Assembly: GCA_965219535.1 (NCBI GenBank) | Contig: CBDCNV010000002.1 | Span: forward strand, 660,001 to 692,000 | DNA: 32,000 nucleotides | DNA from: Opitutales bacterium | GTDB lineage: Bacteria; Verrucomicrobiota; Verrucomicrobiia; Opitutales; PNEW01 | Direction: 5' to 3' | Part shown: positions 1-18,498 of the stretch, piece after piece | How positions within the stretch are numbered: the stretch's first letter is position 1 | How the letters are laid out: every line of letters starts with the position of its first letter | Translations under genes and position numbers: made by a program | Notes under the pieces: model-generated | The model's database searches: none | Told to the model about the DNA's origin: nothing | Seen by the model: the letters and a program-made list of their open reading frames with translations, nothing else

Positions 1-171
1 GAGGGCACCTATGATCAGGTTAAAGTCGATGAGAAAGTATACGCTAAAATTCGCGCTTCTGGGTCGGGCTTTCATCCGCACTGGTTAGCCAATCCTCAAA
101 ACAGTCCCCGGCGCCAACGCTGGATCGATTGGCTGCGGAAATACGGGTTTGTCAAATCAGAAGCAGCTTGA
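1..171 (+). CDS. PhyH-like Fe(II)/2-oxoglutarate dioxygenase paralog, C-terminal fragment (5' end upstream of window)
   Basis: Frame 1 is open from nt 1 to TGA at 169-171. Translation ends ...GFHPHWLANPQNSPRRQRWIDWLRKYGFVKSEAA, the same W-L-x-N-P...RR-x-RWI-x-WL-x-x-GF tail that closes every complete paralog downstream. Confidence 0.8.
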   Translation, partial: EGTYDQVKVDEKVYAKIRASGSGFHPHWLANPQNSPRRQRWIDWLRKYGFVKSEAA

Positions 172-206
172 ATTTATTATAATCTAAAATCGAAAAGATA
201 AAAACT

Positions 207-1037
207 ATGATCACAGAACAACAGGTGTACTTCTTTAAAACTTTTGGATTTCTCGTGCTTAAAAACGTTTTAACACCGGATGAAATAAAAAAAATAAATG
301 AAGAGTTTGCGGTGGGATTGGCCAAAATGGATGAAACTAAAATGGGTGCCTCCGTGAGGAAGCAGTACAATTGGACTAATCTCGGACCCGATTCACCTTT
401 CACTGCCTCATTGCTGGAGGATGAACGGTTCTATGGAATAGCTCAGCAAATTTTGGGGGATGACTGTGTGGGTGTCGATTCTCATGCAAATCAATACAAC
501 GGGAATCGCAGTCCCTGGCATCCTGATATCAGGGAACCGGGGCCGGACCAGTTCAGTGGTTTTAAGTTTACCTTTTACCTTGCACCGGTCGACGGCAATT
601 CGGGTGCTCTCCGGGTTGTTCCCGGTTCGCACTGCCCCGGGTTCAGTAGAAATGTCGAAAAAGTCTATTTGAAAGATAATAATCCCGGACCGGACGACGA
701 TCCCGGTCTCGCTGTAAATGAAGTCCCCGCCCACATTTGCGTGTCCAAACCCGGGGACGCGGTGATTTTCGATTACTTTGTCTGGCACTCCAGTTGGGGT
801 GGCTCAAAAGACCGCCGGATGGTATCACTGCAGTATTACAAAAATCCGAAAACCCCTGAAGAAGAGGAAGGCATGCGCCAGATGGTTGCTTTTCGGAAAA
901 ATTTTAATAAAGGATTCAAACGTGAAACCAAACTTTATCCCGACTTCTGGCTTTCAAATCCGCATAATAATGCTATGCGTAGTCAATGGATAGAATGGTT
1001 TCAGAAGTGGGGCTTTATCGATGCGGTTAATGCCTGA
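207..1037 (+). CDS. PhyH-like Fe(II)/2OG dioxygenase paralog (most divergent + strand copy)
   Basis: 276 aa. N-terminal FGFLVLKNVL, metal motif SPWHPD, RVVPGSH, distal VWHSSWGG, KDRR, and tail FWLSNP...RSQWIEWFQKWGFIDA. Confidence 0.8.
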   Translation: MITEQQVYFFKTFGFLVLKNVLTPDEIKKINEEFAVGLAKMDETKMGASVRKQYNWTNLGPDSPFTASLLEDERFYGIAQQILGDDCVGVDSHANQYNGNRSPWHPDIREPGPDQFSGFKFTFYLAPVDGNSGALRVVPGSHCPGFSRNVEKVYLKDNNPGPDDDPGLAVNEVPAHICVSKPGDAVIFDYFVWHSSWGGSKDRRMVSLQYYKNPKTPEEEEGMRQMVAFRKNFNKGFKRETKLYPDFWLSNPHNNAMRSQWIEWFQKWGFIDAVNA

Positions 1038-1096
1038 CAATTAAAGAAAATTATATATTTTATTTAAAAATAATATTCAAAACTACCCCTTAAAAT

Positions 1097-1942
1097 ATGA
1101 TCGCTGAAAATTACAGCCTCACCGAAAAACAAATTCTACATTTTGAAACCTTTGGGTTTTTAGTCCGCAGAAATGTTTTCAGTGCTGAAGAAATGGCGAC
1201 AATAAATGGAGAATTCGATCGCCGCCGGGCTTCCATTTTAGCTGAAATCGATCCTGAAGAGAAAAAGACTTTCACTCAATGGCCTACCCGAAATCCGGAA
1301 AATCCCTTAACTGCCAGCTTGCTCGATGACCCGCGAATTTATGTGCCATCTGAACAACTGGTAGGAGAAGATTCCATTCCCGTCCAATCTCACTGCAACA
1401 GTTACGGGAAAAGTAGTGGATGGCATGTGGATACTTTTGATCGCCATTTATGTGTAGTCAAAAACATCATGTATCTTCAGCCGACAACCGCGGATCGTGG
1501 GGCCTTGCGTGTTATTCCCGGTTCACATAGAAATCCTTTATCGGAAGACCTGCACAGCATGGATTTGTATGGTTTCCATGATGACTCGTCGCCATTTTTA
1601 AAAGCATCCGGCATGAGAGGAGAAGATATACCCTGTTACATATTTGAGTCGGAGCCAGGCGATGTCATTACCTTTAACGAGTTAACCTGGCATGCGGCCT
1701 TTGGCGGTTATAAAGATCGCCGTTCCCTATCCTATAATTTTTTCACCAACCCAAAGACGGACGATGAAATTGAGTCGATGAAAACAATTGTCGAGCATAC
1801 CCCGGCAAACACACAGGGGTTGGGAACCGTGGGACTCGAATACCATCCCACCTGGTTGGATAATGCTGACAACAACCCGCGACGCGCGCGCTGGATAAAT
1901 TGGTTGGAAGAATGGGGCTTTGTGGATGCTTTTAAAAATTAA
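1097..1942 (+). CDS. PhyH-like Fe(II)/2OG dioxygenase paralog (clade A)
   Basis: 281 aa. FGFLVRRNVFSAEE, GWHVD, NIMYLQPTTADRGALRVIPGSH, TWHAAFGGYKDRR, and tail TWLDNADNNPRRARWINWLEEWGF. Confidence 0.85.
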   Translation: MIAENYSLTEKQILHFETFGFLVRRNVFSAEEMATINGEFDRRRASILAEIDPEEKKTFTQWPTRNPENPLTASLLDDPRIYVPSEQLVGEDSIPVQSHCNSYGKSSGWHVDTFDRHLCVVKNIMYLQPTTADRGALRVIPGSHRNPLSEDLHSMDLYGFHDDSSPFLKASGMRGEDIPCYIFESEPGDVITFNELTWHAAFGGYKDRRSLSYNFFTNPKTDDEIESMKTIVEHTPANTQGLGTVGLEYHPTWLDNADNNPRRARWINWLEEWGFVDAFKN

Positions 1943-1970
1943 AATTTAACCGGTTCTAAACTATAATATC

Positions 1971-2840
1971 ATGATACAGGACAACTATAGAATTAGTGAT
2001 CAGGAGATCGCACTTTATAAATCTTTCGGATTCTTAGTCCGCAGAAATGTATTTACGCCCGAAGAAATGGCGAAGGTGAACGAGGAATTCGACCGCCGCC
2101 GTGCATCGGTGGTGGCAGAAATCGATCCCAAAGAAGAACGGATATTTACCCAGTGGCCGACCCGAAATCCGGAGACACCCTTTACCGCCAGCCTGCTTGA
2201 AGACCCACGTATTTATGTGCCGATGGAACAACTGGTAGGTGAAGATTCTGTCCTCTTCCAGTCCAACTGTAATAGTTACTCCTGGGATGTCCAAAATTGG
2301 CACTATGATGTTGGAGTCACGGAAGTTGAAATGATCAAAAATGTCATGTATCTTCAGCCGACAACCGCAAACAACGGGGCTTTGCGATTTTTACCCGGTT
2401 CAAACAGAAATCCGCTGCGGAACGAACTTACAAACATGCAGTTGGCAAAACCACGCGACGAAATAGGTGTATTTTATGAAGCATCCGGTCTGCGGGGTGA
2501 AGATATCCCCTGCTTCATTTTTGAATCACAACCGGGTGATATCGTTGCTTTCAACGAGTTGACCTGGCATGCCGCCTTTGGCGGCTTTAAAGATCGTCGC
2601 TCCTGCACCTTTAATTTTATACAGCACCCGAAAACACCTGAGCAGAGAGCAGGTGTACAGGATATGGTGACGGGAGCTGCTCACAGCGTAGGGGCCCAGG
2701 GAACGGTGGGTCTGCAATATCATCCCACGTGGTTGGATAATCCTGACAACAGTCCACGGCGAGCGCGCTGGATAAGCAAGTTGGATGAATGGGGTTTCAT
2801 TGAGGCGTATAACACTGGAACTTATACTGAAAAAAAATGA
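1971..2840 (+). CDS. PhyH-like Fe(II)/2OG dioxygenase paralog (clade A)
   Basis: 289 aa. NWHYD, TWHAAFGGFKDRR and the conserved tail. The PGSH motif reads PGSN here. The stop overlaps the next start (ATGA at 2837-2840). Confidence 0.85.
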   Translation: MIQDNYRISDQEIALYKSFGFLVRRNVFTPEEMAKVNEEFDRRRASVVAEIDPKEERIFTQWPTRNPETPFTASLLEDPRIYVPMEQLVGEDSVLFQSNCNSYSWDVQNWHYDVGVTEVEMIKNVMYLQPTTANNGALRFLPGSNRNPLRNELTNMQLAKPRDEIGVFYEASGLRGEDIPCFIFESQPGDIVAFNELTWHAAFGGFKDRRSCTFNFIQHPKTPEQRAGVQDMVTGAAHSVGAQGTVGLQYHPTWLDNPDNSPRRARWISKLDEWGFIEAYNTGTYTEKK

Positions 2841-3682
2841 TACAGGAAAATAACAGTCTGACCGAAGCGCAGATTCAGCATTATGAGGTTTTTGGTTTCC
2901 TCGTAAGGAGAAACGTCTTCAGTGCTGAAGAGGTCGCTAAAATGAACGAAGAATTCGATCGCCGCCTTGCGACCCTCCTTGAGGAAACCGATCCAGAAGG
3001 GAAACGGGTTTTCAACAACTGGCCGAACCGGAATCCTGAAACCCCCTTTATTGCCAGTTTGCTTGATGATCCGCGTATTTATCAACACTCGGAACAACTG
3101 GTCGGAGAAGACTCAGTCCCCGTCCATTCTAATGCCAATAGCTATGGTCAAGATAGTGGATGGCATCCGGACAGGACCGATCATCATATGTGCACGATTA
3201 AAAATGTCATGTATCTTCAGCCGACAACCGCGGAGCGCGGCGCCTTGCGTGTCATTCCCGGTTCACATAAAAATCCGTTACATGAAGATCTTCTCCGCAT
3301 CGGGTTGAGGGGGTTCAAAGAAGAAGACGTTCAGTTTTTGAAAAACTCCGGTTTGCGCGGTGCAGATATTCCCTGCTATATTTTCGAATCGAATCCTGGC
3401 GATGTCATAACCTTTAATGAGCTGACCTGGCATGCGGCCTTTGGCGGTTTTAAAGACCGCCGTACTTGTACTTTTAATTTTTATCGCAACCCGAAAGAAC
3501 CTGAAGAGATCGCATCGATGCAATTGGAAGTAAAAAACTATGCTGAAGATACTAAAAATTTAGGGACCGTCGGATTGCAATTTCATCCCTCGTGGTTGGA
3601 AAATCCTGACCACAATCCCCGACGTGAACGCTGGATCAAATGGCTTGAAGAATGGGGCTTCTTACAAGCTCAATATGAATAA
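2837..3682 (+). CDS. PhyH-like Fe(II)/2OG dioxygenase paralog (clade A)
   Basis: 281 aa. GWHPD, RVIPGSHKNPLHEDLLRIGL, TWHAAFGGFKDRR, and tail SWLENPDHNPRRERWIKWLEEWGF. Confidence 0.85.
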   Translation: MIQENNSLTEAQIQHYEVFGFLVRRNVFSAEEVAKMNEEFDRRLATLLEETDPEGKRVFNNWPNRNPETPFIASLLDDPRIYQHSEQLVGEDSVPVHSNANSYGQDSGWHPDRTDHHMCTIKNVMYLQPTTAERGALRVIPGSHKNPLHEDLLRIGLRGFKEEDVQFLKNSGLRGADIPCYIFESNPGDVITFNELTWHAAFGGFKDRRTCTFNFYRNPKEPEEIASMQLEVKNYAEDTKNLGTVGLQFHPSWLENPDHNPRRERWIKWLEEWGFLQAQYE

Positions 3683-3700
3683 AATCGATACTGAATTAAA

Positions 3701-4525
3701 ATGATTCAGGATAATTATAGCCTCAGCGAGGCGCAGATTCAGCATTTTGAAGTTTTTGGTTTTCTCGTAAGAAGAAACGTCTTCAGTGCTGAAGAGGTGG
3801 CGAGAATGAACGAGGAGTTTGATCGTCGGTTTGCCGCGGTCCTCAAGGAAACAAACCCTGAAGGGAAGCGGTTTTTACATTGGACAAATTTGACTCAGGA
3901 TACTCCCTATATTGCGAGTTTGCTCGATGACCCGCGAATTTATCGGCACTCCGAACAACTGATTGGTGAAGATTCTGTTTTTATCAATTCAGGCTCCAAC
4001 AGTTTTCCGACAGGTACTGGATGGCATCCGGACAGGACCGATCTTAATATGTGCGCCATAAGAAATGTCATGTATCTGCAGCCGACAACTGCGGACCGTG
4101 GAGCCTTGCGTGTTATTCCCGGGTCGCACAAAAATCCACTGCATGAAGAGCTTCTCCGCATCGGATTGTGGGTCTCCAAAGGTAAAGGATCACCGTATTT
4201 AGAGAAATCCGGCTTGAGCGGTGAAGATATACCCTGCTACATAATTGAATCGAATCCGGGCGATGTCATTACCTTTAACGAGCTGACCTGGCATGCGGCC
4301 TTTGGTGGGTATAAAGATCGTCGCTACTGCAACTTTGATTTTTATCGCAATCCGAAGTCACCTGATGAAATAGCCTCAATGCGATTAGAAGCAGAAAAAG
4401 GTAAACAATATGATCCCTGGTGGTTGGAAAATCCTGACAACATTCCGCGACGTGGACGCTGGCTTAACTGGTTAAAAGAATGGGGTTTATTCGAGGTTGA
4501 AAATAAAGAATCAATTCTGAATTAA
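3701..4525 (+). CDS. PhyH-like Fe(II)/2OG dioxygenase paralog (clade A, shortest copy)
   Basis: 274 aa. GWHPD, RVIPGSH, TWHAAFGGYKDRR. The segment before the C-terminal tail is visibly shorter than in its neighbours (…EAEKGKQYDPWWLENP…). Confidence 0.85.
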   Translation: MIQDNYSLSEAQIQHFEVFGFLVRRNVFSAEEVARMNEEFDRRFAAVLKETNPEGKRFLHWTNLTQDTPYIASLLDDPRIYRHSEQLIGEDSVFINSGSNSFPTGTGWHPDRTDLNMCAIRNVMYLQPTTADRGALRVIPGSHKNPLHEELLRIGLWVSKGKGSPYLEKSGLSGEDIPCYIIESNPGDVITFNELTWHAAFGGYKDRRYCNFDFYRNPKSPDEIASMRLEAEKGKQYDPWWLENPDNIPRRGRWLNWLKEWGLFEVENKESILN

Positions 4526-4526
4526 A

Positions 4527-5390
4527 ATGATCCAGGACAATTATAGCCTCAGCGAGTCGCAGATTCAGCATTTTCAGGTTTTTGGTTTCCTCGTAAGGCG
4601 AAAGGTTTTCACTGATGGGGAAGTGGCGAGAATGAACGCGGAATTCGATCGTCGCCTGGCCTCTGTCCTCGAAGAAACTGATCCTGAAGGGAATCAGACT
4701 TTAAACAACTGGACTAATCGGACCCCGGAAACACCTTTTATTGCAAGCTTGCTTGAGGACCCACGTATCTATCTGCCCGCGGAACAACTGGTGGGTGAAG
4801 ACTCTGTCCCTGTCCATTCGAACGCCAACAGCTATGGGACAAATACCAATTGGCATCCGGATAGGACCGATCATAATGTGGGGGCAATCAAAAATGTTAT
4901 GTATCTACAGAAGACTACCGCGGATCGCGGTGCCTTGCGAGTCATTCCCGGGTCGCACAAAAATCCGCTGCATGAAGATCTACTCCGCATCGGATTGCGT
5001 CATATAGAGGGTGAAAAAGACAAATTTTTAGAAGCATCTAATCTTAGCGGGGAAGACATTCCCTGTTATGTATTTGAATCGGAACCGGGTGATATCATTA
5101 CCTTTAACGAGTTGACCTGGCACGCGGCCTTTGGCGGTTATCGAGATCGTCGCACTTGCACCTTTAATTTTTATCGCAATCCGAAGGCGCCCGAAGAGAT
5201 CGAATCGATGCGAAAAGAAGTGGAATATACTTCTAAGAACAATGGTAGATTTGGGACGATGGGGTTGCAATATGATCCTTGGTGGTTGGAAAATCCTGAT
5301 CATAATTCGCGTCGTGCGCGATGGATCAACTGGTTGAAAGAATGGGGTTTCGTGGATGCATATGATAATCAAAAAACTGAACTGAAGTAA
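4527..5390 (+). CDS. PhyH-like Fe(II)/2OG dioxygenase paralog (clade A)
   Basis: 287 aa. NWHPD, RVIPGSH, TWHAAFGGYRDRR and the conserved tail. The start lies 1 nt after the previous stop. Confidence 0.85.
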   Translation: MIQDNYSLSESQIQHFQVFGFLVRRKVFTDGEVARMNAEFDRRLASVLEETDPEGNQTLNNWTNRTPETPFIASLLEDPRIYLPAEQLVGEDSVPVHSNANSYGTNTNWHPDRTDHNVGAIKNVMYLQKTTADRGALRVIPGSHKNPLHEDLLRIGLRHIEGEKDKFLEASNLSGEDIPCYVFESEPGDIITFNELTWHAAFGGYRDRRTCTFNFYRNPKAPEEIESMRKEVEYTSKNNGRFGTMGLQYDPWWLENPDHNSRRARWINWLKEWGFVDAYDNQKTELK

Positions 5391-5391
5391 A

Positions 5392-6237
5392 ATGATACAG
5401 GAAAATTACAGCCTCACCGAAGCGCAGATACAGCATTTTGAAGTTTTTGGGTTCCTCGTCCGTAGAGAGGTATTCAGTCCTGAGGAAATAAGGAAAATGA
5501 ACGAGGAATTCGATCATCGTCTCGCCTCTCTCAAAGCGGAAGCAGACCCCAGCGAAGAACGACTTTTCAATAACTGGCCTAACCGGAATCCCCAGACACC
5601 CTATATTTCCAGTTTGCTCGAAGACCCGCGTATTTATGGTCCTTCGGAGCAGCTCTTAGGCGAAGACTGTGTGCCTGTTCACTCCAATGCCAACAGTTAC
5701 GCGAAAAGTTCGGCCTGGCATCCGGATACGAAGGATGCCCATTTATTGATGGTTAAGAACGTCATGTATCTACAGCCGACGACGGCTGAACGTGGGGCTT
5801 TGCGAGTCATTCCCGGTTCACATAAAAATCCCCTTCATGAAGAGCTTTTGCGTATCGGGTTGGATTGTTCCTTTGGAAAGGAATCACGTTACTTGAATGA
5901 CTCCGGCTTGCTGGGTGAAGATATACCGAGTTATGCCTTCTGTTCACAACCGGGTGATTTAATTATGTTCAACCAGCGTCTATGGCACGCGGCCTTTGGC
6001 GGTTATGAAGATCGCCGTACTTGTACCTATAATTTCTATCAGAACCCCAAGTCAGCGGAAGAAAAAGAAGTGATGCAAAAACAGCTGGAAGTTGCCCGGA
6101 AGAATATTAAATTCCTGGGAACGGTTGGACCGCAATACCATCCCTGGTGGTTGGAAAATCCCGAGGGCAACCCGAGGCGCGCACGTTGGATAAATTTCTT
6201 AAATGATTGGGGTTTCGTGGAAGCAAAAAATAATTAA
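5392..6237 (+). CDS. PhyH-like Fe(II)/2OG dioxygenase paralog (clade A)
   Basis: 281 aa. AWHPD, RVIPGSH, LWHAAFGGYEDRR and the conserved tail. The start lies 1 nt after the previous stop. Confidence 0.85.
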   Translation: MIQENYSLTEAQIQHFEVFGFLVRREVFSPEEIRKMNEEFDHRLASLKAEADPSEERLFNNWPNRNPQTPYISSLLEDPRIYGPSEQLLGEDCVPVHSNANSYAKSSAWHPDTKDAHLLMVKNVMYLQPTTAERGALRVIPGSHKNPLHEELLRIGLDCSFGKESRYLNDSGLLGEDIPSYAFCSQPGDLIMFNQRLWHAAFGGYEDRRTCTYNFYQNPKSAEEKEVMQKQLEVARKNIKFLGTVGPQYHPWWLENPEGNPRRARWINFLNDWGFVEAKNN

Positions 6238-6258
6238 TCAACCGCAAAAATAAATATT

Positions 6259-7116
6259 ATGATTCAAGAAAATCACAGTTTGACCGATGAGCAGGTCCAG
6301 CACTATGAGACCTTCGGTTTTCTTATTCGACGCCAGGTGTTCAGCCCTGAGGAAATTGACCGGATCAACGGGGAGTTCGATACTCATCTCACCGCGATTA
6401 AAGATGATTTTGATAAAATAAAAGATAGCCGTCGCCGTAAATGGCCTAACTGGTCGAACCTTATTCCGGAAACACCTATGAACGCAAATTTGTTGGAAGA
6501 TCCGCGCATTTGTCTACCCACGGAACAATTACAGGGAGAAGACACCGTTCCTGTGTATTCCAATGCTAACAGCTTTAGACAAAACACCAACTGGCACCCG
6601 GATATGAGACAACGACATATTCGCGCGCTTAAAAATCTTATCTATCTGCAACCCACGACTGCTGACCGCGGGTCTTTGCGTCTAATCCCTGGTTCACATT
6701 CTAGTCCTTTATTTGATGAGCTGATTCGTATCGGGTTGAGACCTACTGATGATAGTGAAGCTGATTTTCTTACAGAATCCGGTATGCGTGGCGAAGATAT
6801 TCCCGCTTATGTTTTTTGTTCACAGCCGGGTGATGTCGTAACCTTCAGCATGAATGTGTGGCATGCGGCTTTTGGCGGTTATGAAGACCGCAGGGACCTA
6901 TCCTTTGCCTATTACAGCAATCCTAAGACGGACCAGGAAGAAGTGGAGCTGCGCGCCCAGGTGGAAAATGCCAAAAACATCAGTCCCAATATGGATTTGC
7001 AAGATTCGGATTACTATCATTCCTGGTGGCTGGAAAATTCCGAGGGCAGTGCGAAGCGAGAGCGCTGGATAAAATGGTTGAATGATTGGGGATTTATCGA
7101 AGCAATGAATAATTAA
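6259..7116 (+). CDS. PhyH-like Fe(II)/2OG dioxygenase paralog (clade B)
   Basis: 285 aa. Clade B signatures WPNWSNLIPETP, LQGEDT, NWHPD, RLIPGSH, VWHAAFGGYEDRR, YYHSWWLENSEGSAKRERWIKWLNDWGF. Confidence 0.85.
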   Translation: MIQENHSLTDEQVQHYETFGFLIRRQVFSPEEIDRINGEFDTHLTAIKDDFDKIKDSRRRKWPNWSNLIPETPMNANLLEDPRICLPTEQLQGEDTVPVYSNANSFRQNTNWHPDMRQRHIRALKNLIYLQPTTADRGSLRLIPGSHSSPLFDELIRIGLRPTDDSEADFLTESGMRGEDIPAYVFCSQPGDVVTFSMNVWHAAFGGYEDRRDLSFAYYSNPKTDQEEVELRAQVENAKNISPNMDLQDSDYYHSWWLENSEGSAKRERWIKWLNDWGFIEAMNN

Positions 7117-7136
7117 TTAACCACGAAAATAATATT

Positions 7137-8012
7137 ATGATCCAGGATAATCACAGTCTGACCGAATCGCAGATCCAGCATTTTGAAACATTCGGTTTTA
7201 TTGTCCGTCGCCAAGTCTTCAGTCCGAAGGAAATTGATCTGATCAATGAGGAGTTCGAGCAGTATTTGACGACGACTAAAGGCGAATTTGAGAAGAAAGT
7301 CAGGGACGAAGACCGGCGTTGGCCCAACTGGTCTAACTTGAATCCGGATACGCCATTAATGGCGAGTTTGCTCGAAGATCCGCGCATCTGCGTACCCTCG
7401 GAACAGTTACAGGGAGAGGACACCTTTCCCGTGTATTCCAATTGCAACAGCTTTAGATATAACACCCGCTGGCATCCGGATACAAGATTGCAAAATTTGC
7501 GTATGCTCAAAAATCTCTTCTATTTGCAGCCCACCACCGGTGACAACGGATCTTTGCGTGTGATCCCCGGTTCGCATAAGGGTCCGTTGTTCGATGAGCT
7601 GATTAGAATCGGGTTAAATAACATTTATGATAACGATCCAGATTTTCTAAAAGAATCGGGCATGAGCGGCGAAGATATTCCCTCCTATATATTCAGTTCG
7701 CAGCCAGGCGATGTCATCACCTTTAACATGAGGCTATGGCACGCTGCTTTTAATACCTACGAAGACCGCCGGAACTGTTCCTATGCTTTTTTAAGCAATC
7801 CCAAAACGACGGATGAAGAAGAGGATCTGCGAGTAATGGCGGAATCTGCTAAAACCACGACAACGGATCTGAAAATGGTTTTGAAAGATTCTCAATACTA
7901 TCATTCGTGGTGGTTGGAGAACGCAGAGGACAGTCCGAAGCGCGCGCGCTGGATAAAAAGGCTGGATGATTGGGGTTTTATCGATAACGTGAATAATTCA
8001 ACGAAAAATTAA
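7137..8012 (+). CDS. PhyH-like Fe(II)/2OG dioxygenase paralog (clade B)
   Basis: 291 aa. WPNWSNLNPDTP, RWHPD, RVIPGSH, LWHAAFNTYEDRR and the conserved tail. 20-nt spacer to the previous gene. Confidence 0.85.
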   Translation: MIQDNHSLTESQIQHFETFGFIVRRQVFSPKEIDLINEEFEQYLTTTKGEFEKKVRDEDRRWPNWSNLNPDTPLMASLLEDPRICVPSEQLQGEDTFPVYSNCNSFRYNTRWHPDTRLQNLRMLKNLFYLQPTTGDNGSLRVIPGSHKGPLFDELIRIGLNNIYDNDPDFLKESGMSGEDIPSYIFSSQPGDVITFNMRLWHAAFNTYEDRRNCSYAFLSNPKTTDEEEDLRVMAESAKTTTTDLKMVLKDSQYYHSWWLENAEDSPKRARWIKRLDDWGFIDNVNNSTKN

Positions 8013-8032
8013 ATAGCGCGGAAAATGATCTT

Positions 8033-8893
8033 ATGATCCAGGAGAATTACAGTCTAACGGAAGAGCAGATTCAGCATTTTGAAACTTTCGGATTTATTGT
8101 TCGTCGCCAGGTCTTCAGCCCTGAGGAAATTGACCGGATTAACAAGGAGTTCGATAACTATCTCGCTTCAATTAAGGATGGATTTGAAAAGAAACATGAA
8201 CCCGGTATTCGCTGCTGGCCCAATTGGTCGAACTTGAACCCAGATACGCCCTACATGGCTGGTTTATTGGAAGATCCTCGCATTTATGTGCCCTCAGAAC
8301 AATTACAAGGGGAAGACACTTACGCCGTTTATTCCAATGCGAACAGCTTTAGATTTAATAGCAACTGGCACCCAGATGCGGTATATCCAAATTTGCATCT
8401 GCTCAAGAGTCTCGTCTATCTGCAACCGACGACCGCTGACAACGGATCATTGCGTGTAATTCCGGGTTCGCATAAAAATCCACTCTTCGATGATCTCCAA
8501 CGCCTGAAGATGATTAATTCTAATGATAAATCGGAACCTCTAGATGGATCCGCGATGCGTAGTGAAGATGTTCCCGCTTATGTATTTTGTTCGCAGCCGG
8601 GTGATGTCATTACCTTTAACCAAAGATTATGGCACGCGGCTTTTAATGGTTACGAAGACCGCAGAAACTGCTCTTTTGCTTTTTACAGCTATCCCAGGAC
8701 GGCCGATGAAAAAGAGGAACTGCAGGGACTGTTGAAAATTGCCAGAAATGCGGCAAGCGGACTGAAAATGGAATTGAAGGATTCAAAATACTACCATCCC
8801 TGGTGGTTGGAAAATCCTGAGGCTAGTCCGAAGCGCGCGAGTTGGATAAAATCGCTCGATGAATTGGGCTTTCTCAATGCGGTTGATAATTAA
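8033..8893 (+). CDS. PhyH-like Fe(II)/2OG dioxygenase paralog (clade B)
   Basis: 286 aa. NWHPD, RVIPGSH, LWHAAFNGYEDRR, and tail PWWLENPEASPKRASWIKSLDELGF. 20-nt spacer. Confidence 0.85.
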   Translation: MIQENYSLTEEQIQHFETFGFIVRRQVFSPEEIDRINKEFDNYLASIKDGFEKKHEPGIRCWPNWSNLNPDTPYMAGLLEDPRIYVPSEQLQGEDTYAVYSNANSFRFNSNWHPDAVYPNLHLLKSLVYLQPTTADNGSLRVIPGSHKNPLFDDLQRLKMINSNDKSEPLDGSAMRSEDVPAYVFCSQPGDVITFNQRLWHAAFNGYEDRRNCSFAFYSYPRTADEKEELQGLLKIARNAASGLKMELKDSKYYHPWWLENPEASPKRASWIKSLDELGFLNAVDN

Positions 8894-8913
8894 GCAATCT
8901 TCGGAATTATATC

Positions 8914-9777
8914 ATGATCCAGGAAGATCACAGTCTAACTGAAGAGCAGGTCCAGCATTTTGAAACTTTCGGTTTTATTGTCCGTCGCCAAGTCTTCGGT
9001 CTGAAGGAAATTGAACGGATTGACGCGGAGTTTGATAAATATCTCGCGGCGATTAAAGAGGAATTTGAAAAGAAAACGGATCCCAGTACACGCCGCTGGC
9101 CCAACTGGTCCAACCTGAATCCGGATACACCAATTATGGCCGGTATGTTGGAAGATCCTCGCATTTATGTGCCCACAGAACAATTACAGGGTGAAGACAC
9201 CGTCCCCCTGTATTCCAATGCCAACAGCTTTAGATTTAACAGCAACTGGCATCCGGATACGCGGCAATGTCATTTGCCTATGCTTAAAATTCTTGTCTAT
9301 CTGCAACCCACGACCGGGGACCATGGATCTTTGCGTGTGATCCCTGGTTCGCATAAGAGTCCCCTCTACGATAACCTCCAACGACTGAAGTTGAGTTATT
9401 CTGATGATAAGCAGTCGAAATCTTTAAAGGAATCCGGCATGCGTGGCGAAGATATTCCCGCTTATATATTCAATTCGCAGCCGGGGGATGTTATTATTTT
9501 TAACATGAGGTTATGGCACGCGGCTTTCTGCGGTTTTGAAGATCGCAGGAACTGTTCATTTGCTTTTTGCAGCAATCCCAAGACGACAGAAGAAGAGGAG
9601 GATCTGAAATCGCAGTTAGAAAATGCCAAAACATTGACCGGGGGGTTGAGAATGGAATTGAAAGATTCGAAATACTACCATCCCTGGTGGTTGGAAAATC
9701 CCGAGGGCAGCCCGAGGCGCGAGCGCTGGATAAACTGGCTCAATGAGCGGGGCTTCATCGATGCAGTGAATAATTAA
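8914..9777 (+). CDS. PhyH-like Fe(II)/2OG dioxygenase paralog (clade B)
   Basis: 287 aa. NWHPD, RVIPGSH, LWHAAFCGFEDRR and the conserved tail. 20-nt spacer. Confidence 0.85.
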   Translation: MIQEDHSLTEEQVQHFETFGFIVRRQVFGLKEIERIDAEFDKYLAAIKEEFEKKTDPSTRRWPNWSNLNPDTPIMAGMLEDPRIYVPTEQLQGEDTVPLYSNANSFRFNSNWHPDTRQCHLPMLKILVYLQPTTGDHGSLRVIPGSHKSPLYDNLQRLKLSYSDDKQSKSLKESGMRGEDIPAYIFNSQPGDVIIFNMRLWHAAFCGFEDRRNCSFAFCSNPKTTEEEEDLKSQLENAKTLTGGLRMELKDSKYYHPWWLENPEGSPRRERWINWLNERGFIDAVNN

Positions 9778-9797
9778 ATAGCTGTGATAATCTTATC

Positions 9798-10640
9798 GTG
9801 ATCCAGGATAATTGCACGCTTACTGAAAAGCAGATTCAGCAGTTTGAAACCTTTGGCTTTCTTGTCCGCCGCCAGGTCTTCAGCGCTGAGGAAATGGCGG
9901 AAATTGACGACGATTTCAGCCGCCGCCGTTTAACCATCCTGGCGCAGCTCGATCCTGAAGAGAAAAAGAATTTCAGACAATGGCCGACCCGAAATCCGGA
10001 ACTTCCATTTATCTCCAGCTTGCTTGAAGACCCACGCATTTATGGGCCCTCCGAGCAACTTATCGGTGAAGACTCCGTATTATTTCAATCGAACTGCAAC
10101 AGCTATGGGGTAGACACTTCCTGGCATTCGGATTCAAAAGATCGCCATATGCGATTGATCAAAAATGTCATGTATTTGCAACCAACAACTGCTGAGCGTG
10201 GGGCTTTACGCCTCATTCCCGGTTCACATAAGAGTCCTTTATATGATGAGCTGGTTCGAATCGGCCTCGATCTTTATGTCAAAGATCAAGGGCCCTATTT
10301 TCTAAAGGATTCCGAATTCAGCGGGGAAGATATTCCCTGTTACATATTTTCTTCGCAGCCGGGTGACGTCATCATCTTTAGTCAGAACACCTGGCATGCG
10401 GCTTATGGTACTTTTGAATACAGACGGACCTGCACCTTTAATTTTATCTGCAATCCTAAGACTACCGAGGAAAAAGCGGAATTTCATGCCATGGCAGGGT
10501 CTTTTAGTTTTAAAGACCTACCGGTCCAGGGACCCCAATGTCATCCGGAGTGGTTGGCCAATCTCAAAGGCAGTGCGCGGCGCGCGCGGTGGATAAAAAA
10601 GTTGGAAGAGTGGGGGTTTGTCGAAGCGGTGAAGACTTAA
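9798..10640 (+). CDS. PhyH-like Fe(II)/2OG dioxygenase paralog (clade A-like, last + strand copy, GTG start)
   Basis: 280 aa. SWHSD, RLIPGSH, TWHAAYGTFEYRR, and tail EWLANLKGSARRARWIKKLEEWGF. The start is GTG at 9798-9800, at exactly the position of ATG in the conserved (A/G)TGATCCAGGA start context of its paralogs. Confidence 0.8.
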   Translation: MIQDNCTLTEKQIQQFETFGFLVRRQVFSAEEMAEIDDDFSRRRLTILAQLDPEEKKNFRQWPTRNPELPFISSLLEDPRIYGPSEQLIGEDSVLFQSNCNSYGVDTSWHSDSKDRHMRLIKNVMYLQPTTAERGALRLIPGSHKSPLYDELVRIGLDLYVKDQGPYFLKDSEFSGEDIPCYIFSSQPGDVIIFSQNTWHAAYGTFEYRRTCTFNFICNPKTTEEKAEFHAMAGSFSFKDLPVQGPQCHPEWLANLKGSARRARWIKKLEEWGFVEAVKT

Positions 10641-10746
10641 AGTGATAGGATTAATCTCTTCACAGTATCACACTCTGTCCTTCGGCCACTGCAAGCCCGT
10701 CTTTAAATCTTTATAACCCGAGCCGTATATCCTGTGCTATCGTGAA

Positions 10747-11616
10747 TTAATTGTCGTCACGAAAGGGAACAAAGGTGGGTACTTTTTTCGCGCCCAGTCG
10801 CGGCAGGTCTTCGACCATCTGGCGAATGCGGGGGCGGTCGCTTTTCAACAAGGCATCTGAGGGTTCAAAGATACCTTTTTGATAATGGCGCAGCGAGGCG
10901 AGATGCTTGTCTGTAGTCGGTCGCGCCGCAAATTTCAGCGCGATATAACGCCGCCCTTTTGTCCCATTGAACATGCCATGCCAGAGACTATGATTAAAAA
11001 AAATAACATCACCGGGATTGCATTCAAAAGGGAAGCTGGGCATTTCCTCTCCCGTGATGCCGAAAGGTTTAACGATTTCTCCATATTGATGGCGGTCTTC
11101 CGGTTCTATTTGCGCGTGCAAGGGCAGACGATGAGAGCCCGGGATCACGCGCAGACAGCCACTGTTTTTATCCAGTGGATCGAGGTAAATCATGACTTTT
11201 ATTCTCAAATATGAGATTTCCTCTTCATCTCCCGGACGATCGGGATGCCAGCCATGTTGGCGATGAAATGTTACATGGCCTTCAGATCCTGACCAGACAA
11301 AACCAGGACTAAGCAATCCCTCGACCGTATCATGTATTCGATTGTCATCGAGCAGGGACGTCAGCAAAGGCCGCTGTTCAATGAACTGATCTAATGAAAT
11401 CGATACATCACTCGTCGGATTCTTCATCAGGGGACGCTGCTCAACGAACTCATCAAAAGATGCTCCCTTGTCATTGGAAGAAGAGTTTGCCCTATGTTCT
11501 TTCCAGATTTCTTCGGCGGTGCTTGTAATCTTATCAATCTCTTCAGGCGTGAATGCCTGTCGGAGAATAAGAAAACCAAAGGTATCAAAATGTGCTTTCT
11601 GCTCGGGCGATAACAT
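10747..11616 (-). CDS. PhyH-like Fe(II)/2OG dioxygenase paralog (clade C, opposite strand)
   Basis: 289 aa. FGFLILRQAFTPEE, HGWHPDRPGDEEE, RVIPGSHRLPLH, LWHGMFNGTKGRR. It lacks the WL-x-NP...WGF tail of the + strand copies and carries an internal duplication (see findings). Confidence 0.8.
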   Translation of the reverse strand: MLSPEQKAHFDTFGFLILRQAFTPEEIDKITSTAEEIWKEHRANSSSNDKGASFDEFVEQRPLMKNPTSDVSISLDQFIEQRPLLTSLLDDNRIHDTVEGLLSPGFVWSGSEGHVTFHRQHGWHPDRPGDEEEISYLRIKVMIYLDPLDKNSGCLRVIPGSHRLPLHAQIEPEDRHQYGEIVKPFGITGEEMPSFPFECNPGDVIFFNHSLWHGMFNGTKGRRYIALKFAARPTTDKHLASLRHYQKGIFEPSDALLKSDRPRIRQMVEDLPRLGAKKVPTFVPFRDDN

Positions 11617-11664
11617 GGGTGGTCTACTTGTGAAATAAATAGATTATCAGGTAAAATCTATTAC

Positions 11665-12507
11665 TCAATTAATCATATTCTCTTCTCGGTTATGAAAGAG
11701 TGAAGCTTTGACATCATCACGGAAAGGGGTGAAGGCAGGTACTTTTTTTGCGCCCAGGCGTGGTAAATCCTCAACCATACGGCGAATACCGGGATGTTCA
11801 CTTTTTAATAGCGTGTCTGCGGGTTCGAAGACTCCCTCTGTATAATAGTGCAGGGAGGCGAGTTGCAGGACAGTTTTGGGTCGAGCCGAATATTTTAGCG
11901 CGATATAGCGGCGCCCTTTTTTGCCATTAAACATGGCATGAAAAAGACTGTGGTTAAAAAAAATAACATCACCGGGACGACATTCCAAAGGAAATCCTGG
12001 CATCTCGGGACCGGTGACGTCGAATGGCTTTACATGGTCTGCGTGTTGGTGATGTTCTTCCGGTTCTATTTCTGCATGAAGGGGCATCCGATGGGAGCCG
12101 GGAAGCACGCGTAGACATCCACTGTCTTTATCCAGGGGATCGAGATAAATCATCACTTTAATTCTAAGAAATAAAAGTTCTTCTTCATCACCGGGTCTGT
12201 CCGTATGCCAACCATGGTAACGGTGACTCGTAACTTGCCCTTCAGATCCAGCAAAGATAAAATCAGAGCCCATCAATCCCTCGATCGTCCCGTAGATGCG
12301 ATCATCCTCTAGAAGCTTCAACAGCGGGGGATGCCGTTCGACAAACGCATCTAAAGTTATTTCCCCATTTTTCGAAGAAGCTTTTTCTTTTTCCCAAATG
12401 CTATCAGCTTCGCAAGTTATCTTTTCAATCTCTTCCGGAGTGAAAGCCTGACGAAGAATAATAAATCCAAAGGTGTCAAAATGTGCTTTTTGTTCCGGTG
12501 CTAACAT
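11665..12507 (-). CDS. PhyH-like Fe(II)/2OG dioxygenase paralog (clade C, opposite strand)
   Basis: 280 aa, closely related to 10747..11616. HGWHTDRPGDEEE, RVLPGSHRMPLH, LFHAMFNGKKGRR. Confidence 0.8.
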   Translation of the reverse strand: MLAPEQKAHFDTFGFIILRQAFTPEEIEKITCEADSIWEKEKASSKNGEITLDAFVERHPPLLKLLEDDRIYGTIEGLMGSDFIFAGSEGQVTSHRYHGWHTDRPGDEEELLFLRIKVMIYLDPLDKDSGCLRVLPGSHRMPLHAEIEPEEHHQHADHVKPFDVTGPEMPGFPLECRPGDVIFFNHSLFHAMFNGKKGRRYIALKYSARPKTVLQLASLHYYTEGVFEPADTLLKSEHPGIRRMVEDLPRLGAKKVPAFTPFRDDVKASLFHNREENMIN

Positions 12508-12599: not shown

Positions 12600-13586
12600 A
12601 TGAAAACTGTAATGGGAATCGATGGAGGTGGCACGCAGACACGTGCCGCAATCCTTGACGAGGAGGGGCATTTGCTCGGAATCGGTCAAGCCGGACCCTC
12701 TAATCCCAATGCTGTAGGATTGGATCAATCCCTGGTCGCGCTCAAGGGAGCAATGGGCGATGCCTGTGACGGTGCTGAGATAAAGTTAGATGAAATCGAT
12801 TCCGTGTTCCTCGGACTCTCGGGACTGCCACGGATTAATCGTGAAGCCTTTAAAGAGACATTGACCGAGAAACTGGCATTTACCGCGGATCAAACTTTTG
12901 CCATCGATCATGATTTGCACATTTCCTTGACGGGTGGTTTAGCAGGAGAACCGGGAATGGTTCTCGTGGTTGGAACCGGATCAGCCTGTTATGGATTGAA
13001 GGAGGACGGCAGTCGAAGTCAGGCCGGTGGTTGGGGTTACCTCGTAGACGATTTTGGCAGCGCCTATTGGATAGGGTTACAGGCCCTTGCCGCGGTCGCG
13101 CAATCTGCCGATCACCGCGCCGGCCCCACTGCGCTCACCCATGCGATCAAAGAAGCGATGGAGCTGGATGAGATGAACCAGTTGATCAACCGCATCTACG
13201 ATCCCAATTTCAGTCGGACTGAGATTGCCTCGCTCGCGCCGCACGTATTCTTAATGGCGGGTGCAGGTGATGCCACCGCCCTCGCAATCATATATCGAGG
13301 CTGTGAAGAACTGGCACGCATGACGACAACCGTGGCTCAGGAACTTCATTGGAACAATGCGCCCTTAAAAATTGTAATCACTGGCGGTGTGGCGCGCGCG
13401 AAAAAACAATTCATGGATCCGCTCAAAGCGGCCTTAAAAAACAATCTACCCCAGGCCACACTGATCAATCCCATCTTCCCCCCCATTTTCGGCGCCGCAC
13501 TGCTTGCCTATAAAGGCGTACATATTTCACCCGATGAATCGCTCATCGAGAAATTGAAGGATGAAGCGAATTCGAATTTAGATTAA
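12600..13586 (+). CDS. BadF/BadG/BcrA/BcrD-type ATPase, N-acetylglucosamine-kinase-like sugar kinase
   Basis: 328 aa. N-terminal phosphate-1 motif MGIDGGGTQTR, a later VVGTGS motif, GGWGYLVDDFGSAYWIG and a C-terminal ITGGVA. This is the ASKHA-fold pattern typical of NagK/BadF-family kinases. Confidence 0.7.
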   Translation: MKTVMGIDGGGTQTRAAILDEEGHLLGIGQAGPSNPNAVGLDQSLVALKGAMGDACDGAEIKLDEIDSVFLGLSGLPRINREAFKETLTEKLAFTADQTFAIDHDLHISLTGGLAGEPGMVLVVGTGSACYGLKEDGSRSQAGGWGYLVDDFGSAYWIGLQALAAVAQSADHRAGPTALTHAIKEAMELDEMNQLINRIYDPNFSRTEIASLAPHVFLMAGAGDATALAIIYRGCEELARMTTTVAQELHWNNAPLKIVITGGVARAKKQFMDPLKAALKNNLPQATLINPIFPPIFGAALLAYKGVHISPDESLIEKLKDEANSNLD

Positions 13587-14418: not shown

Positions 14419-14422
14419 TATT

Positions 14423-14797: not shown

Positions 14798-14849
14798 GAA
14801 TAGATACCAGTAGCTTAAGAAAATTCAGCTCGAAATATAAGCGTCTGTC

Positions 14850-15560: not shown

Positions 15561-15574
15561 GGCTCTGGGCGTTT

Positions 15575-17600: not shown

Positions 17601-17606
17601 ATTTAA

Positions 17607-18491: not shown

Positions 18492-18498
18492 GTTTTTC

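What the first reader, a model, noticed from the sequence alone, without database searches (positions are those of the whole stretch)
1..12507. At least 15 tandem PhyH-like Fe(II)/2OG dioxygenase paralogs in 12.5 kb, array open at the left edge
Thirteen consecutive same-strand genes (one truncated by the window edge) and two convergent genes all encode 274-291 aa proteins of one family.
- Each has an N-terminal FGF(L/I)(V/I) motif, a W-H-x-D metal motif, a PGSH motif, a distal (W/F)-H and an R-R pair.
- This is the pattern of the phytanoyl-CoA dioxygenase (PhyH) branch of 2-oxoglutarate oxygenases.
- No copy is obviously dead: there are no internal stops and the H-x-D...H triad is retained in all 14 complete genes.

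This therefore looks like a maintained battery of diversified enzymes, not a decaying amplification. No other gene type (transporter, regulator, precursor peptide, carrier protein) is interleaved. PhyH-family genes are usually single tailoring or catabolic genes. I am not aware of a described system built from more than 13 head-to-tail copies. Possible readings:
- A substrate-range battery, for example hydroxylation or demethylation of a family of related small molecules or glycan decorations.
- A dosage amplification caught after divergence.
Basis: partly seen in the sequence, partly recalled or inferred. Interest (0 to 1): 0.85.

Follow-up and report, generated by a model that had tools for sequence, protein, structure and literature searches.

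The report
Conserved 22-gene PhyH dioxygenase operon
A marine Opitutales (Verrucomicrobiota) bacterium keeps 22 diverged but intact copies of one iron/2-oxoglutarate oxygenase gene side by side, conserved copy for copy in related species, which looks like an enzyme toolkit for oxidising a family of related small molecules that has not been identified.

Summary
Window 1-12507 holds 14 complete PhyH (PF05721) genes plus a C-terminal fragment. An identical public contig shows 8 more copies to the left, giving 22 PhyH genes in about 22.4 kb.

- **Layout:** an aldo-keto reductase leads 20 head-to-tail copies separated by -4 to 59 bp.
- **Conservation:** five other Opitutales assemblies, including a free-living Sargasso Sea single-cell genome, carry the same array with 14 to at least 24 copies and the same flanks.
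- **Age:** almost every paralog has a positional ortholog, so the array predates these species.
- **Selection:** all 22 copies show ortholog dN/dS of 0.04-0.26 and keep H-x-D...H...RR.
- **Structure:** an AlphaFold model (pLDDT 92.5) matches PhyH-family structures.
- **Excluded:** assembly artefact and recent amplification.

No characterised enzyme is close. Ectoine hydroxylase is the nearest profile match but falls far below its family cut-off, and the PHYHD1/FJS O-demethylases share only 21-25% identity.

The conserved neighbours are sugar-type genes: a mutarotase-like DUF4432, an enolase-superfamily enzyme, the reductase and a NagK-like kinase. My best guess, which is inferred, is a cytoplasmic battery that oxidatively removes decorations from algal sugars. 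An osmolyte or amino-acid hydroxylase battery is the main rival.

PhyH expansions are known in sponge Poribacteria. I found no description of this operon.

The parts
1..168 (+). C-terminal 55 codons of PhyH copy 8 of 22 (full gene 261 aa in L001 9180..9965)
207..1037 (+). PhyH copy 9 (276 aa). It belongs to the 'left-hand' subgroup and is 32-40% identical to copies 10-20.
1097..1942 (+). PhyH copy 10 (281 aa), WHVD
1971..2840 (+). PhyH copy 11 (289 aa), WHYD. PGSN replaces PGSH. It overlaps the next gene by 4 bp.
2837..3682 (+). PhyH copy 12 (281 aa). This is the copy modelled with AlphaFold.
3701..4525 (+). PhyH copy 13 (274 aa)
4527..5390 (+). PhyH copy 14 (287 aa), 1-bp spacer on both sides
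5392..6237 (+). PhyH copy 15 (281 aa)
6259..7116 (+). PhyH copy 16 (285 aa)
7137..8012 (+). PhyH copy 17 (291 aa)
8033..8893 (+). PhyH copy 18 (286 aa)
8914..9777 (+). PhyH copy 19 (287 aa)
9798..10640 (+). PhyH copy 20 (280 aa, GTG start), the last gene of the head-to-tail run
10747..11616 (-). PhyH copy 21 (289 aa), convergent, from a separate subfamily shared with copy 2 of the array
11665..12507 (-). PhyH copy 22 (280 aa), convergent, 70% identical to copy 21
12600..13586 (+). Conserved right flank: a BadF/BcrAD-type sugar kinase. Its closest solved relatives are an N-acetylmuramic acid/GlcNAc kinase and a hexokinase. It is transcribed divergently from copy 22.

Best explanation
**What is shown.** Window 1-12507 is the right-hand two thirds of a cluster of about 22.4 kb in a marine Opitutales (Verrucomicrobiota) genome. 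The cluster encodes 22 Fe(II)/2-oxoglutarate oxygenases from an uncharacterised PhyH subfamily. None has a signal-peptide-like N-terminus, so they are probably cytoplasmic.

An aldo-keto reductase gene is followed by 20 head-to-tail copies with spacers of -4 to 59 bp within the window. No convincing terminator lies between them, so the run is most likely one transcript. One further copy forms a divergent three-gene unit with a mutarotase-like DUF4432 protein and an enolase-superfamily enzyme. Two copies lie convergently at the far end, next to a NagK-like sugar kinase.

The cluster is old and evolves by gene birth and death. Every copy is kept intact and under purifying selection.

**What is inferred.** Each copy binds Fe(II) through H-x-D...H and binds 2-oxoglutarate through the conserved Arg. 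Each oxidises a different member of one family of small polar substrates. I put the 'substrate-range battery' reading at about 0.85.

The specific mechanism I commit to, at about 0.3-0.35, is oxidative unmasking of decorated monosaccharides released from algal glycans.
1. The enzyme hydroxylates the C-H next to an O-methyl, O-sulfate or amino substituent.
2. The unstable intermediate collapses.
3. The collapse releases formaldehyde (O-demethylation), or it leaves a keto-sugar.
4. The reductase reduces the keto-sugar back to an alcohol.
5. The freed sugar enters the neighbouring mutarotase, lactone-cycloisomerase and kinase routes.
For: **Family and fold.** PF05721 hits for all copies. AlphaFold model with pLDDT 92.5. 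Foldseek matches to PhyH-family structures at E about 1e-12. Catalytic residues align to EctD and are invariant in 57 homologs and in all copies of four genomes.

**Extent.** L001 is identical to the window over the stored overlap, window 1..11037, and adds 8 copies.

**Conservation.** L003 has at least 24 copies, L004 has 22 and L005 has 14. L016 has at least 23. L019 carries the same left end.

**Positional orthology.** NJ tree.

**Selection.** Ortholog dN/dS is 0.04-0.26 for all 22 copies. Paralog dN/dS is 0.13-0.25 with dS of 0.75-1.9.

**Divergence pattern.** 68 of 281 columns are conserved within ortholog groups but differ between them. They cluster in loops and strands around the H-x-D motif and in the C-terminal helices. 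Only 20 columns, essentially the cofactor ligands, are shared by all groups.

**Cellular location and operon structure.** No N-terminal hydrophobic segment and tiny spacers. Terminator-like sites do not exceed chance.

**Sugar context.**
- DUF4432 matches PDB 3TY1, an aldose-1-epimerase-like protein, at E 6e-97.
- The enolase-superfamily protein matches A. tumefaciens 1RVK/4HCD at E 5e-75.
- The kinase matches a MurNAc/GlcNAc kinase and a hexokinase.
- These flanks are conserved in L005, L016 and L019.
- A second PhyH-rich locus combines PhyH genes with a GDSL esterase, ThuA and another reductase.

**Precedents.** PhyH-family FJS/PHYHD1 demethylate 2'-O-methyl ribose (PMC12709175). HygX, EvdO and AviO, which are among the top fold matches, act on oligosaccharide antibiotics (my knowledge). 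KanJ, also among them, works with the reductase KanK on an aminoglycoside (my knowledge). The SAG paper describes the lineage as a consumer of eukaryotic-phytoplankton carbohydrates (PMC6003095).
Against: - No biochemical data exist for any member.
- The nearest characterised relatives by profile are ectoine, proline and leucine hydroxylases, not sugar-acting enzymes. The fold matches are all at a similar TM of 0.53-0.60, so they do not discriminate.
- Similarity to the proven O-demethylases is only family-level: PHYHD1 at E 1e-4, and FJS-like enzymes at 21-25% identity.
- The sugar-type neighbours are on the opposite strand or in separate transcription units. The DUF4432 protein has a signal-peptide-like N-terminus, so it may work in another compartment.
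- No transporter or regulator was found next to the array.
- In other genomes, relatives sit beside a TauD-family oxygenase and a creatinase/M24 hydrolase, or stand alone in unrelated contexts.
- The within-group versus between-group conservation pattern is partly expected from the phylogeny alone. I could not map it onto coordinates.
Confidence: 0.55

Rival explanations
1. The copies form a battery of hydroxylases for nitrogenous osmolytes or amino-acid-like zwitterions, such as ectoine-like compounds, proline derivatives, betaines or guanidino compounds released by phytoplankton. Each copy would hydroxylate a different solute to start its catabolism.
For: The best profile matches among solved structures are ectoine hydroxylases (E 1.6e-15), proline hydroxylase H11 (1e-12) and leucine hydroxylase (9e-9). 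NCBIfam's only hits are ectoine hydroxylase, the chlorinating-enzyme subfamily and, for the divergent left-end copy, methylphosphonate hydroxylase, all weak. Relatives at 72% identity lie next to a TauD-family oxygenase and a Creatinase_N/Peptidase_M24 hydrolase. Another PhyH-rich locus has such a hydrolase about 5 kb away. A Caldilineaceae homolog lies near an enolase-superfamily gene, a DAO-type oxidase and a peptide/opine-type ABC transporter.
Against: The ectoine hydroxylase score is 33 bits against a cut-off of 336.5. The conserved flanks of the array itself are sugar-type genes. No betaine or amino-acid transporter is adjacent. The reductase at the head of the operon has no obvious role in this scheme.
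Confidence: 0.25
2. The enzymes are biosynthetic tailoring enzymes. They would decorate a secondary metabolite or a cell-surface glycan made by the bacterium itself.
For: Many characterised bacterial PhyH-family enzymes are tailoring enzymes, including FtmOx1, HygX, EvdO, AviO, KanJ and SnoK, and these dominate the fold matches.
Against: No PKS, NRPS, glycosyltransferase, carrier protein or precursor gene appears in the 20 kb on either side in any of six genomes. Twenty parallel tailoring steps by a single family would be unprecedented. The array is kept in a streamlined planktonic genome of about 2.65 Mb (PMC6003095).
Confidence: 0.07
3. The array is a recent dosage amplification now diverging or decaying, or an assembly artefact of a repeat.
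For: The tandem, same-strand arrangement and the shared 20-21-nt spacers between copies 15-20 show that the copies arose by tandem duplication. Copy number differs between genomes, from 14 to at least 24.
Against: Paralog dS is 0.75-1.9 and DNA identity is only 60-83%. Positional orthologs occur across species. Purifying selection acts on every copy, and catalytic residues are intact in all the full-length copies analysed. The same structure appears in six independent assemblies, made from both long-read metagenomes and a single-cell genome.
Confidence: 0.02
4. The enzymes are 2'-O-methyl-nucleoside demethylases of the FJS/PHYHD1 type, used to salvage modified nucleosides.
For: Activity on 2'-O-methyl nucleosides is reported to be widespread in PF05721, including in a Poribacteria enzyme (PMC12709175).
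Against: Identity to the tested bacterial enzymes is only 21-25%, and PHYHD1 scores E 1e-4. The H-Q-D-S-G-Y motif of the FJS-like enzymes is not present; the array proteins have W-H-P-D instead. Twenty paralogs are far more than four nucleobases would need, given the broad specificity reported for FJS.
Confidence: 0.05

Closest known systems
PhyH-family gene expansion in sponge-symbiont 'Candidatus Poribacteria' (Kamke et al. 2014, PMC3909097)
   Same: Both involve a massive, highly diverse expansion of PF05721 proteins in marine bacteria that specialise in degrading complex carbohydrates. In both cases the function is unknown and the proteins are annotated only as 'ectoine hydroxylase-related/phytanoyl-CoA dioxygenase family'.
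   Different: The Poribacteria expansion was described as a genome-wide count: more than 1.9% of genes, with 305 sequences in 193 clusters. None of the phyH passages I read mentions an operon or tandem array. The case here is a different phylum (Opitutales), includes a free-living planktonic member, and is a single syntenic operon with positional orthologs.
Ectoine hydroxylase EctD (PDB 4MHR/4Q5O, 3EMR)
   Same: It is the closest solved relative by profile (E 1.6e-15). It shares the fold, the H-x-D...H triad and a PGSH-type motif.
   Different: The score is 33 bits against the TIGR02408 cut-off of 336.5. The region after H-x-D differs. No ect genes are nearby. The array proteins carry a C-terminal extension of about 60 aa with a conserved W-L-x-N-P...R-R-x-R-W-I-x-W-L-x-x-W-G-F motif that I do not recall in EctD (not compared here).
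FJS / PHYHD1 2'-O-methyl-nucleoside demethylases (PMC12709175)
   Same: These are PF05721 enzymes shown to remove an O-methyl group from a sugar (ribose) with release of formaldehyde. They are the mechanistic precedent for the O-demethylation reading.
   Different: Similarity is only family-level: 21-25% identity and PHYHD1 at E 1e-4. They are described as individual enzymes, with no array reported.
KanJ/KanK of kanamycin biosynthesis
   Same: A PhyH-family dioxygenase oxidises a sugar carbon that carries a heteroatom to a ketone, and a separate NADPH reductase then reduces it (my knowledge). KanJ is among the fold matches at TM about 0.56. The array is led by an aldo-keto reductase.
   Different: KanJ/KanK is biosynthetic, a single pair, and acts on an aminoglycoside. 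Sequence identity is 17-18%.
Paralog expansions of oxidative enzymes in SAR202 Chloroflexota (PMC5395668, PMC6946804)
   Same: The concept is the same: old expansions of one catabolic oxygenase family are proposed to widen the range of marine dissolved organic compounds a cell can oxidise.
   Different: Those papers centre on other families, including flavin monooxygenases and enolase-superfamily enzymes (my recollection). They do not describe one head-to-tail operon.
Cytochrome P450 sugar demethylases of marine Bacteroidetes (PMC6292453, PMC9400963)
   Same: They perform the same proposed physiological task, oxidative removal of O-methyl groups from algal sugars with release of formaldehyde.
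   Different: They belong to an unrelated enzyme family (haem P450 with redox partners, from my knowledge). One substrate, 6-O-methyl-D-galactose, is covered in those papers.

Membership tests
PhyH family (Pfam PF05721) of Fe(II)/2-oxoglutarate oxygenases | Significant match to the PF05721 profile above the gathering score | tested here: met
   All 14 window genes score 42-71 bits against a cut-off of 22. The left-hand copies in L001 carry precomputed PF05721 hits, one of them marked weak.
PhyH family (Pfam PF05721) of Fe(II)/2-oxoglutarate oxygenases | Double-stranded beta-helix fold resembling solved PhyH-family structures | tested here: met
   The AlphaFold model has pLDDT 92.5 and pTM 0.89. 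Foldseek gives E of 8e-13 to 1e-10, probability 1.00 and TM 0.53-0.60 to FtmOx1, HygX, EvdO1/2, AviO1, EctD, H11 and KanJ.
PhyH family (Pfam PF05721) of Fe(II)/2-oxoglutarate oxygenases | H-x-D...H facial triad for Fe(II) | tested here: met
   H110, D112 and H199 are invariant in 57 homologs and in all the full-length copies analysed from four genomes. They align to the WHSD and distal His motifs of EctD. I could not inspect the model coordinates directly.
PhyH family (Pfam PF05721) of Fe(II)/2-oxoglutarate oxygenases | Basic residue about 10 positions after the distal His that binds the C5 carboxylate of 2-oxoglutarate | tested here: met
   R209 is invariant and R208 nearly so. The assignment of its role rests on knowledge of the family, not on a structure with ligand.
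PhyH family (Pfam PF05721) of Fe(II)/2-oxoglutarate oxygenases | 2-oxoglutarate-dependent turnover to succinate and CO2 | not testable with these tools
   Requires an enzyme assay.
Ectoine hydroxylase (EctD, TIGR02408) | Score above the equivalog cut-off | tested here: not met
   24-35 bits against a cut-off of 336.5.
FJS/PHYHD1-type 2'-O-methyl-nucleoside demethylases | Close sequence relationship to the tested enzymes | tested here: not met
   PHYHD1 (2OPW) scores E 1e-4 over 43 residues only. Identity to the Acidisoma and Poribacteria enzymes taken from the paper's supplement is 21-25%.
Genome-wide PhyH expansion of the poribacterial type | PF05721 genes make up more than about 1.9% of all genes in the genome | not testable with these tools
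   The whole genome is not available here. What was seen: 22 copies in this locus, plus a second locus type with 6-7 copies in related genomes.
Anti-phage defence systems (PADLOC) | Match to any PADLOC model | tested here: not met
   No hit for four representative copies.

The most novel reading that the evidence does not exclude
The array is a previously unrecognised catabolic device: about 20 specialised 2-oxoglutarate oxygenases in a single operon. It would let pelagic Verrucomicrobia strip the many positional O-methyl (or sulfate or amino) decorations from algal and dissolved-organic-matter sugars inside the cell, with one shared reductase repairing the keto intermediates. This would be the first 2-oxoglutarate-dependent carbohydrate 'de-decoration' system. 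It might also explain the unexplained PhyH expansions in sponge symbionts.
Probability: 0.25. Interest if true: 0.85.

Novelty: new variant of a known kind. Interest (0 to 1): 0.66.

Why it matters
PhyH-family genes are among the most expanded and least understood enzyme families in marine polysaccharide-degrading and sponge-associated bacteria. Their role has been open since at least 2014.

This locus offers a defined test set: 22 intact paralogs, each with orthologs in several genomes, in one operon with a reductase. If the copies prove to be substrate-specialised, they would reveal how small-genome planktonic Verrucomicrobia deal with chemically decorated sugars or other polar metabolites, which are thought to slow carbon turnover in the ocean. 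They would also supply a ready panel of regio-selective C-H oxidation catalysts.

Independently of function, the locus is a clean natural example of long-term birth-and-death evolution of a tandem enzyme array in a bacterium.

Tried and rejected
- **Sponge-symbiont origin.** I first suspected it because close homologs carry Caldilineaceae, Gemmatimonadetes and Bacteroidota MAG names and because of the Poribacteria literature. The array is also present in a free-living Sargasso Sea single-cell genome, and relatives occur in TARA mesopelagic data. Host association is therefore not established.
- **Function from NCBIfam equivalogs.** Only far sub-threshold hits.
- **Link to FJS/PHYHD1 demethylases.** Sequences from the paper's supplement gave only family-level similarity.
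- **Promoter and terminator scans.** Counts were at chance level and uninformative.
- **Context of homologs outside the clade.** They are singletons in unrelated neighbourhoods with no recurrent partner.
- **Defence-system reading.** No PADLOC hit.
- **Literature.** Searches for PhyH arrays in Verrucomicrobia/Opitutales, and for 2-oxoglutarate-dependent sugar demethylases in marine bacteria, found nothing. Among the papers listed, only P450 demethylases and the Poribacteria count bear on this question.
- **Identity of PDB 1RVK/4HCD.** I recall it as galactarolactone cycloisomerase, but I could not verify this in the library. It stays marked as memory.

Full report
**1. The observation**

The window contains 12 complete ORFs on the plus strand between 207 and 10640. 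It also contains two convergent ORFs on the minus strand (10747..11616 and 11665..12507) and an in-frame C-terminal fragment at 1..168. The complete ORFs are 274-291 aa.

All 14 match Pfam PF05721 (PhyH) at E 1e-10 to 2e-19, well above the gathering score. The one exception is the gene at 1971..2840, which has PGSN where the others have PGSH.

Pairwise identities show three groups:
- The core genes (1097..10640) are 44-72% identical to each other.
- The first gene is 32-40% identical to the core.
- The two convergent genes are 70% identical to each other but only 25-33% to the rest.

At the DNA level the copies are 60-83% identical. There is no near-identical repeat that an assembler could collapse or inflate.

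**2. The array is larger than the window shows**

Looking up the first gene's product found an ENA contig of 117 kb. Its stored stretch, L001, overlaps window 1..11037 and is identical to it. To the left it carries, in order:
- seven more plus-strand PhyH genes;
- an aldo-keto reductase (AKR) directly upstream of them, on the same strand;
- one PhyH gene on the opposite strand;
- a DUF4432 protein and an enolase-superfamily (MR_MLE) protein.

The total is 22 PhyH genes in about 22.4 kb. Twenty of them follow the AKR head to tail. Spacers in the window part are -4 to 59 bp, several exactly 1 or 20-21 bp, and AT-rich. Terminator-like sites do not exceed chance. None of the 22 proteins has a signal-peptide-like N-terminus.

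**3. Source organism and conservation**

A scan of one genome per species found the same array in two Opitutales MAGs and in the single-cell genome Opi.OSU.00C. Two further assemblies carry it.

| Locus | Source | PhyH copies |
|---|---|---|
| L003 | Opitutales MAG | at least 24 (runs off both ends of the 20.8-kb locus) |
| L004 | Opitutales MAG | 22 |
| L005 | Opi.OSU.00C single-cell genome | 14 |
| L016 | further assembly | at least 23 |
| L019 | further assembly | same left end |

The full order is DUF4432, PhyH(-), AKR, the PhyH run, 1-2 convergent PhyH and a BadF-type kinase. It is seen complete in the window plus L001 and in L005. L016 and L019 carry the same left-hand flank.

Opi.OSU.00C is a free-living bacterium from 250 m depth in the Sargasso Sea, with an estimated genome of 2.65 Mb. 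Its describers emphasise catabolism of eukaryotic-phytoplankton carbohydrates and do not mention these dioxygenases (PMC6003095).

**4. Evolution**

A neighbour-joining tree of all copies from four genomes groups the genes by position, not by genome. Almost every paralog has an ortholog at the corresponding place. The array is therefore older than the split of these species.

There are lineage-specific gains, for example L003_13 beside L003_12. There are also losses: the L003_15/L004_14 lineage is absent from the window genome. L005 is much shorter. This is birth-and-death evolution.

- Ortholog dN/dS is 0.04-0.26 for all 22 genes.
- Among paralogs, dN/dS is 0.13-0.25, with dS of 0.75-1.9, near saturation.
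- H-x-D, the distal His and the RR pair are intact in every full-length copy analysed from the four genomes.

These results reject both rival readings, recent dosage amplification and decay.

**5. Structure and family placement**

An AlphaFold model of the gene at 2837..3682, built on a 57-sequence alignment, has mean pLDDT 92.5. Foldseek against the PDB returns only PhyH-family structures at the top, at E about 1e-12 and TM 0.53-0.60. These are FtmOx1, HygX, EvdO1/2, AviO1, EctD, proline hydroxylase H11 and KanJ.

A profile of the subfamily finds these relatives:

| Solved relative | E-value |
|---|---|
| Ectoine hydroxylase (best) | 1.6e-15 |
| Proline hydroxylase H11 | 1e-12 |
| Leucine hydroxylase | 9e-9 |
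| PHYHD1 | 1e-4 |

The alignment places H110, D112 and H199 on the EctD metal motifs.

No NCBIfam equivalog is approached. Ectoine hydroxylase scores 33 bits against a cut-off of 336.5. The bacterial 2'-O-methyl-nucleoside demethylases of PMC12709175 are 21-25% identical.

An exhaustive profile search of 1.84 billion cluster representatives gives only 343 at E <= 1e-30. Annotations are limited to 'hypothetical' or 'ectoine hydroxylase-related dioxygenase'. The proteins thus belong to a narrow, uncharacterised PhyH subfamily.

**6. Evidence for specialisation**

I used ortholog groups from five genomes. Of 281 columns, 68 are conserved within groups but take six or more different residues between groups. 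They cluster at residues 43-64, 93-125 (including the x of H-x-D and the loop after it), 145-170, 180-196, 210-218 and 225-248.

Only 20 columns have the same consensus in all groups, and these are essentially the cofactor-binding motifs. The variable positions are rich in polar residues.

This is what a set of enzymes with one chemistry and different polar substrates would show. Two caveats apply: part of the pattern follows from the tree alone, and I could not map it onto coordinates.

**7. Context and the proposed mechanism**

*Shown.*
- The AKR is the first gene of the long run in three genomes (L001, L005, L016), and probably in L003.
- In L019 the divergent PhyH copy, DUF4432 and the MR_MLE gene are co-directional with gaps of 28 and 15 bp.
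- DUF4432 is 3TY1-like, that is aldose-1-epimerase-like, at E 6e-97.
- The MR_MLE protein is very close to A. tumefaciens 1RVK/4HCD/4MMW at E 5e-75. I recall this enzyme as the galactarolactone cycloisomerase of oxidative uronate catabolism, but I could not verify that.
- The right-flank kinase resembles MurNAc/GlcNAc kinase and hexokinase.
- A second PhyH-rich locus in the clade combines PhyH genes with a GDSL esterase, ThuA and another AKR.

*Inferred.* The battery acts on decorated monosaccharides.
1. Hydroxylation next to an O-methyl group would release formaldehyde, as shown for ribose 2'-O-methyl by PhyH-family enzymes in PMC12709175.
2. Hydroxylation at a carbon bearing sulfate or an amine would leave a ketone.
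3. An AKR could reduce that ketone, as in the KanJ/KanK pair (my knowledge).

I give the generic battery reading about 0.85 and this specific substrate class about 0.3-0.35.

*Main rival (0.25).* A battery for osmolyte or amino-acid-like compounds. It is supported by the EctD, proline and leucine hydroxylase proximity. It is also supported by TauD plus creatinase/M24 neighbours of close relatives in other genomes.

*Other readings.* Biosynthetic tailoring (0.07) lacks any scaffold genes nearby. A defence role has no support.

**8. Comparison with what is known**

Very large PhyH expansions were reported in 2014 for sponge Poribacteria, where PF05721 is the most abundant domain family and its function is mostly unknown (PMC3909097). 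Old expansions of other oxygenase families in SAR202 have been proposed to broaden the range of oxidisable marine organic matter.

I found no description of a PhyH operon of this kind. I also found none of PhyH expansion in Opitutales, or of 2-oxoglutarate-dependent sugar demethylases in marine bacteria.

I therefore rate it a new variant of a known kind. The family and the idea of paralog expansion are known. What is new is the single, syntenic operon of more than 20 genes with positional orthologs.

**9. Verdict**

Its biochemical role is unresolved but directly testable. Interest 0.66.

Noticed in passing
window 16311..23590: Probable integrated mobile element. It contains a tyrosine integrase (16311..17600), ORFs with no family hits, IS3-type transposase remnants (20176..21141), and a second integrase-like ORF (22242..23456, minus strand) directly beside tRNA-Pro(cgg) at 23514..23590. 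The otherwise identical ENA contig ends at about window 15650, just before this region.
   Followed up: partly
window 23722..25191 and 29100..30569: Two 1470-nt copies of an IS481-type insertion sequence, 99% identical, in inverted orientation. Each encodes the same 396-aa transposase. They bracket 3.9 kb that encodes an NHL-repeat beta-propeller protein and an 816-aa Ig_7-domain protein, a layout that resembles a composite transposon.
   Followed up: partly
window 28048..29087 and 30651..31690: The C-terminal ~345 codons of the 816-aa Ig_7 protein are duplicated in inverted orientation at 82% nucleotide identity, as part of a second Ig_7 protein (30651..31904, minus strand).
   Followed up: no
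window 13639..16213: Downstream of the kinase lies a run of small 'chemical housekeeping' genes: a SAM methyltransferase, a glyoxalase/VOC protein, an AlkD-like DNA-alkylation repair protein and a GNAT acetyltransferase. L005 instead has a different, 405-aa PhyH-domain protein after the kinase, so the run is not conserved there. A link to aldehyde or alkylation stress from the oxygenases is pure speculation.
   Followed up: partly
L006 8962..18155 and L014 8958..20364: A second PhyH-rich locus type in the same clade: two PhyH genes, a GDSL esterase, ThuA, an aldo-keto reductase, two PhyH genes, an unknown 398-aa protein, and two more PhyH genes. The PhyH family is therefore expanded beyond the main array, and it again sits with a reductase.
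   Followed up: partly
L010/L011 10001..16725: In another genome a 72%-identical relative sits in a small cluster: PhyH, PhyH, a TauD-family oxygenase and a Creatinase_N/Peptidase_M24 hydrolase, with another PhyH about 2 kb further on. This hints at nitrogenous small-molecule catabolism for at least some members of the subfamily.
   Followed up: no
L013 2925..4633: In a contig with 3x coverage, the positions of two array genes are broken into four short ORFs. This is most likely sequencing error at low coverage, not pseudogenisation.
   Followed up: no
L001 669..1913 (minus strand): The DUF4432 mutarotase-like protein has an N-terminal extension of about 21 aa that looks like a signal peptide and is absent from the solved homolog 3TY1. 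The 413-aa length recurs in most homologs. If the protein is exported, it would work in a different compartment from the oxygenases.
   Followed up: no
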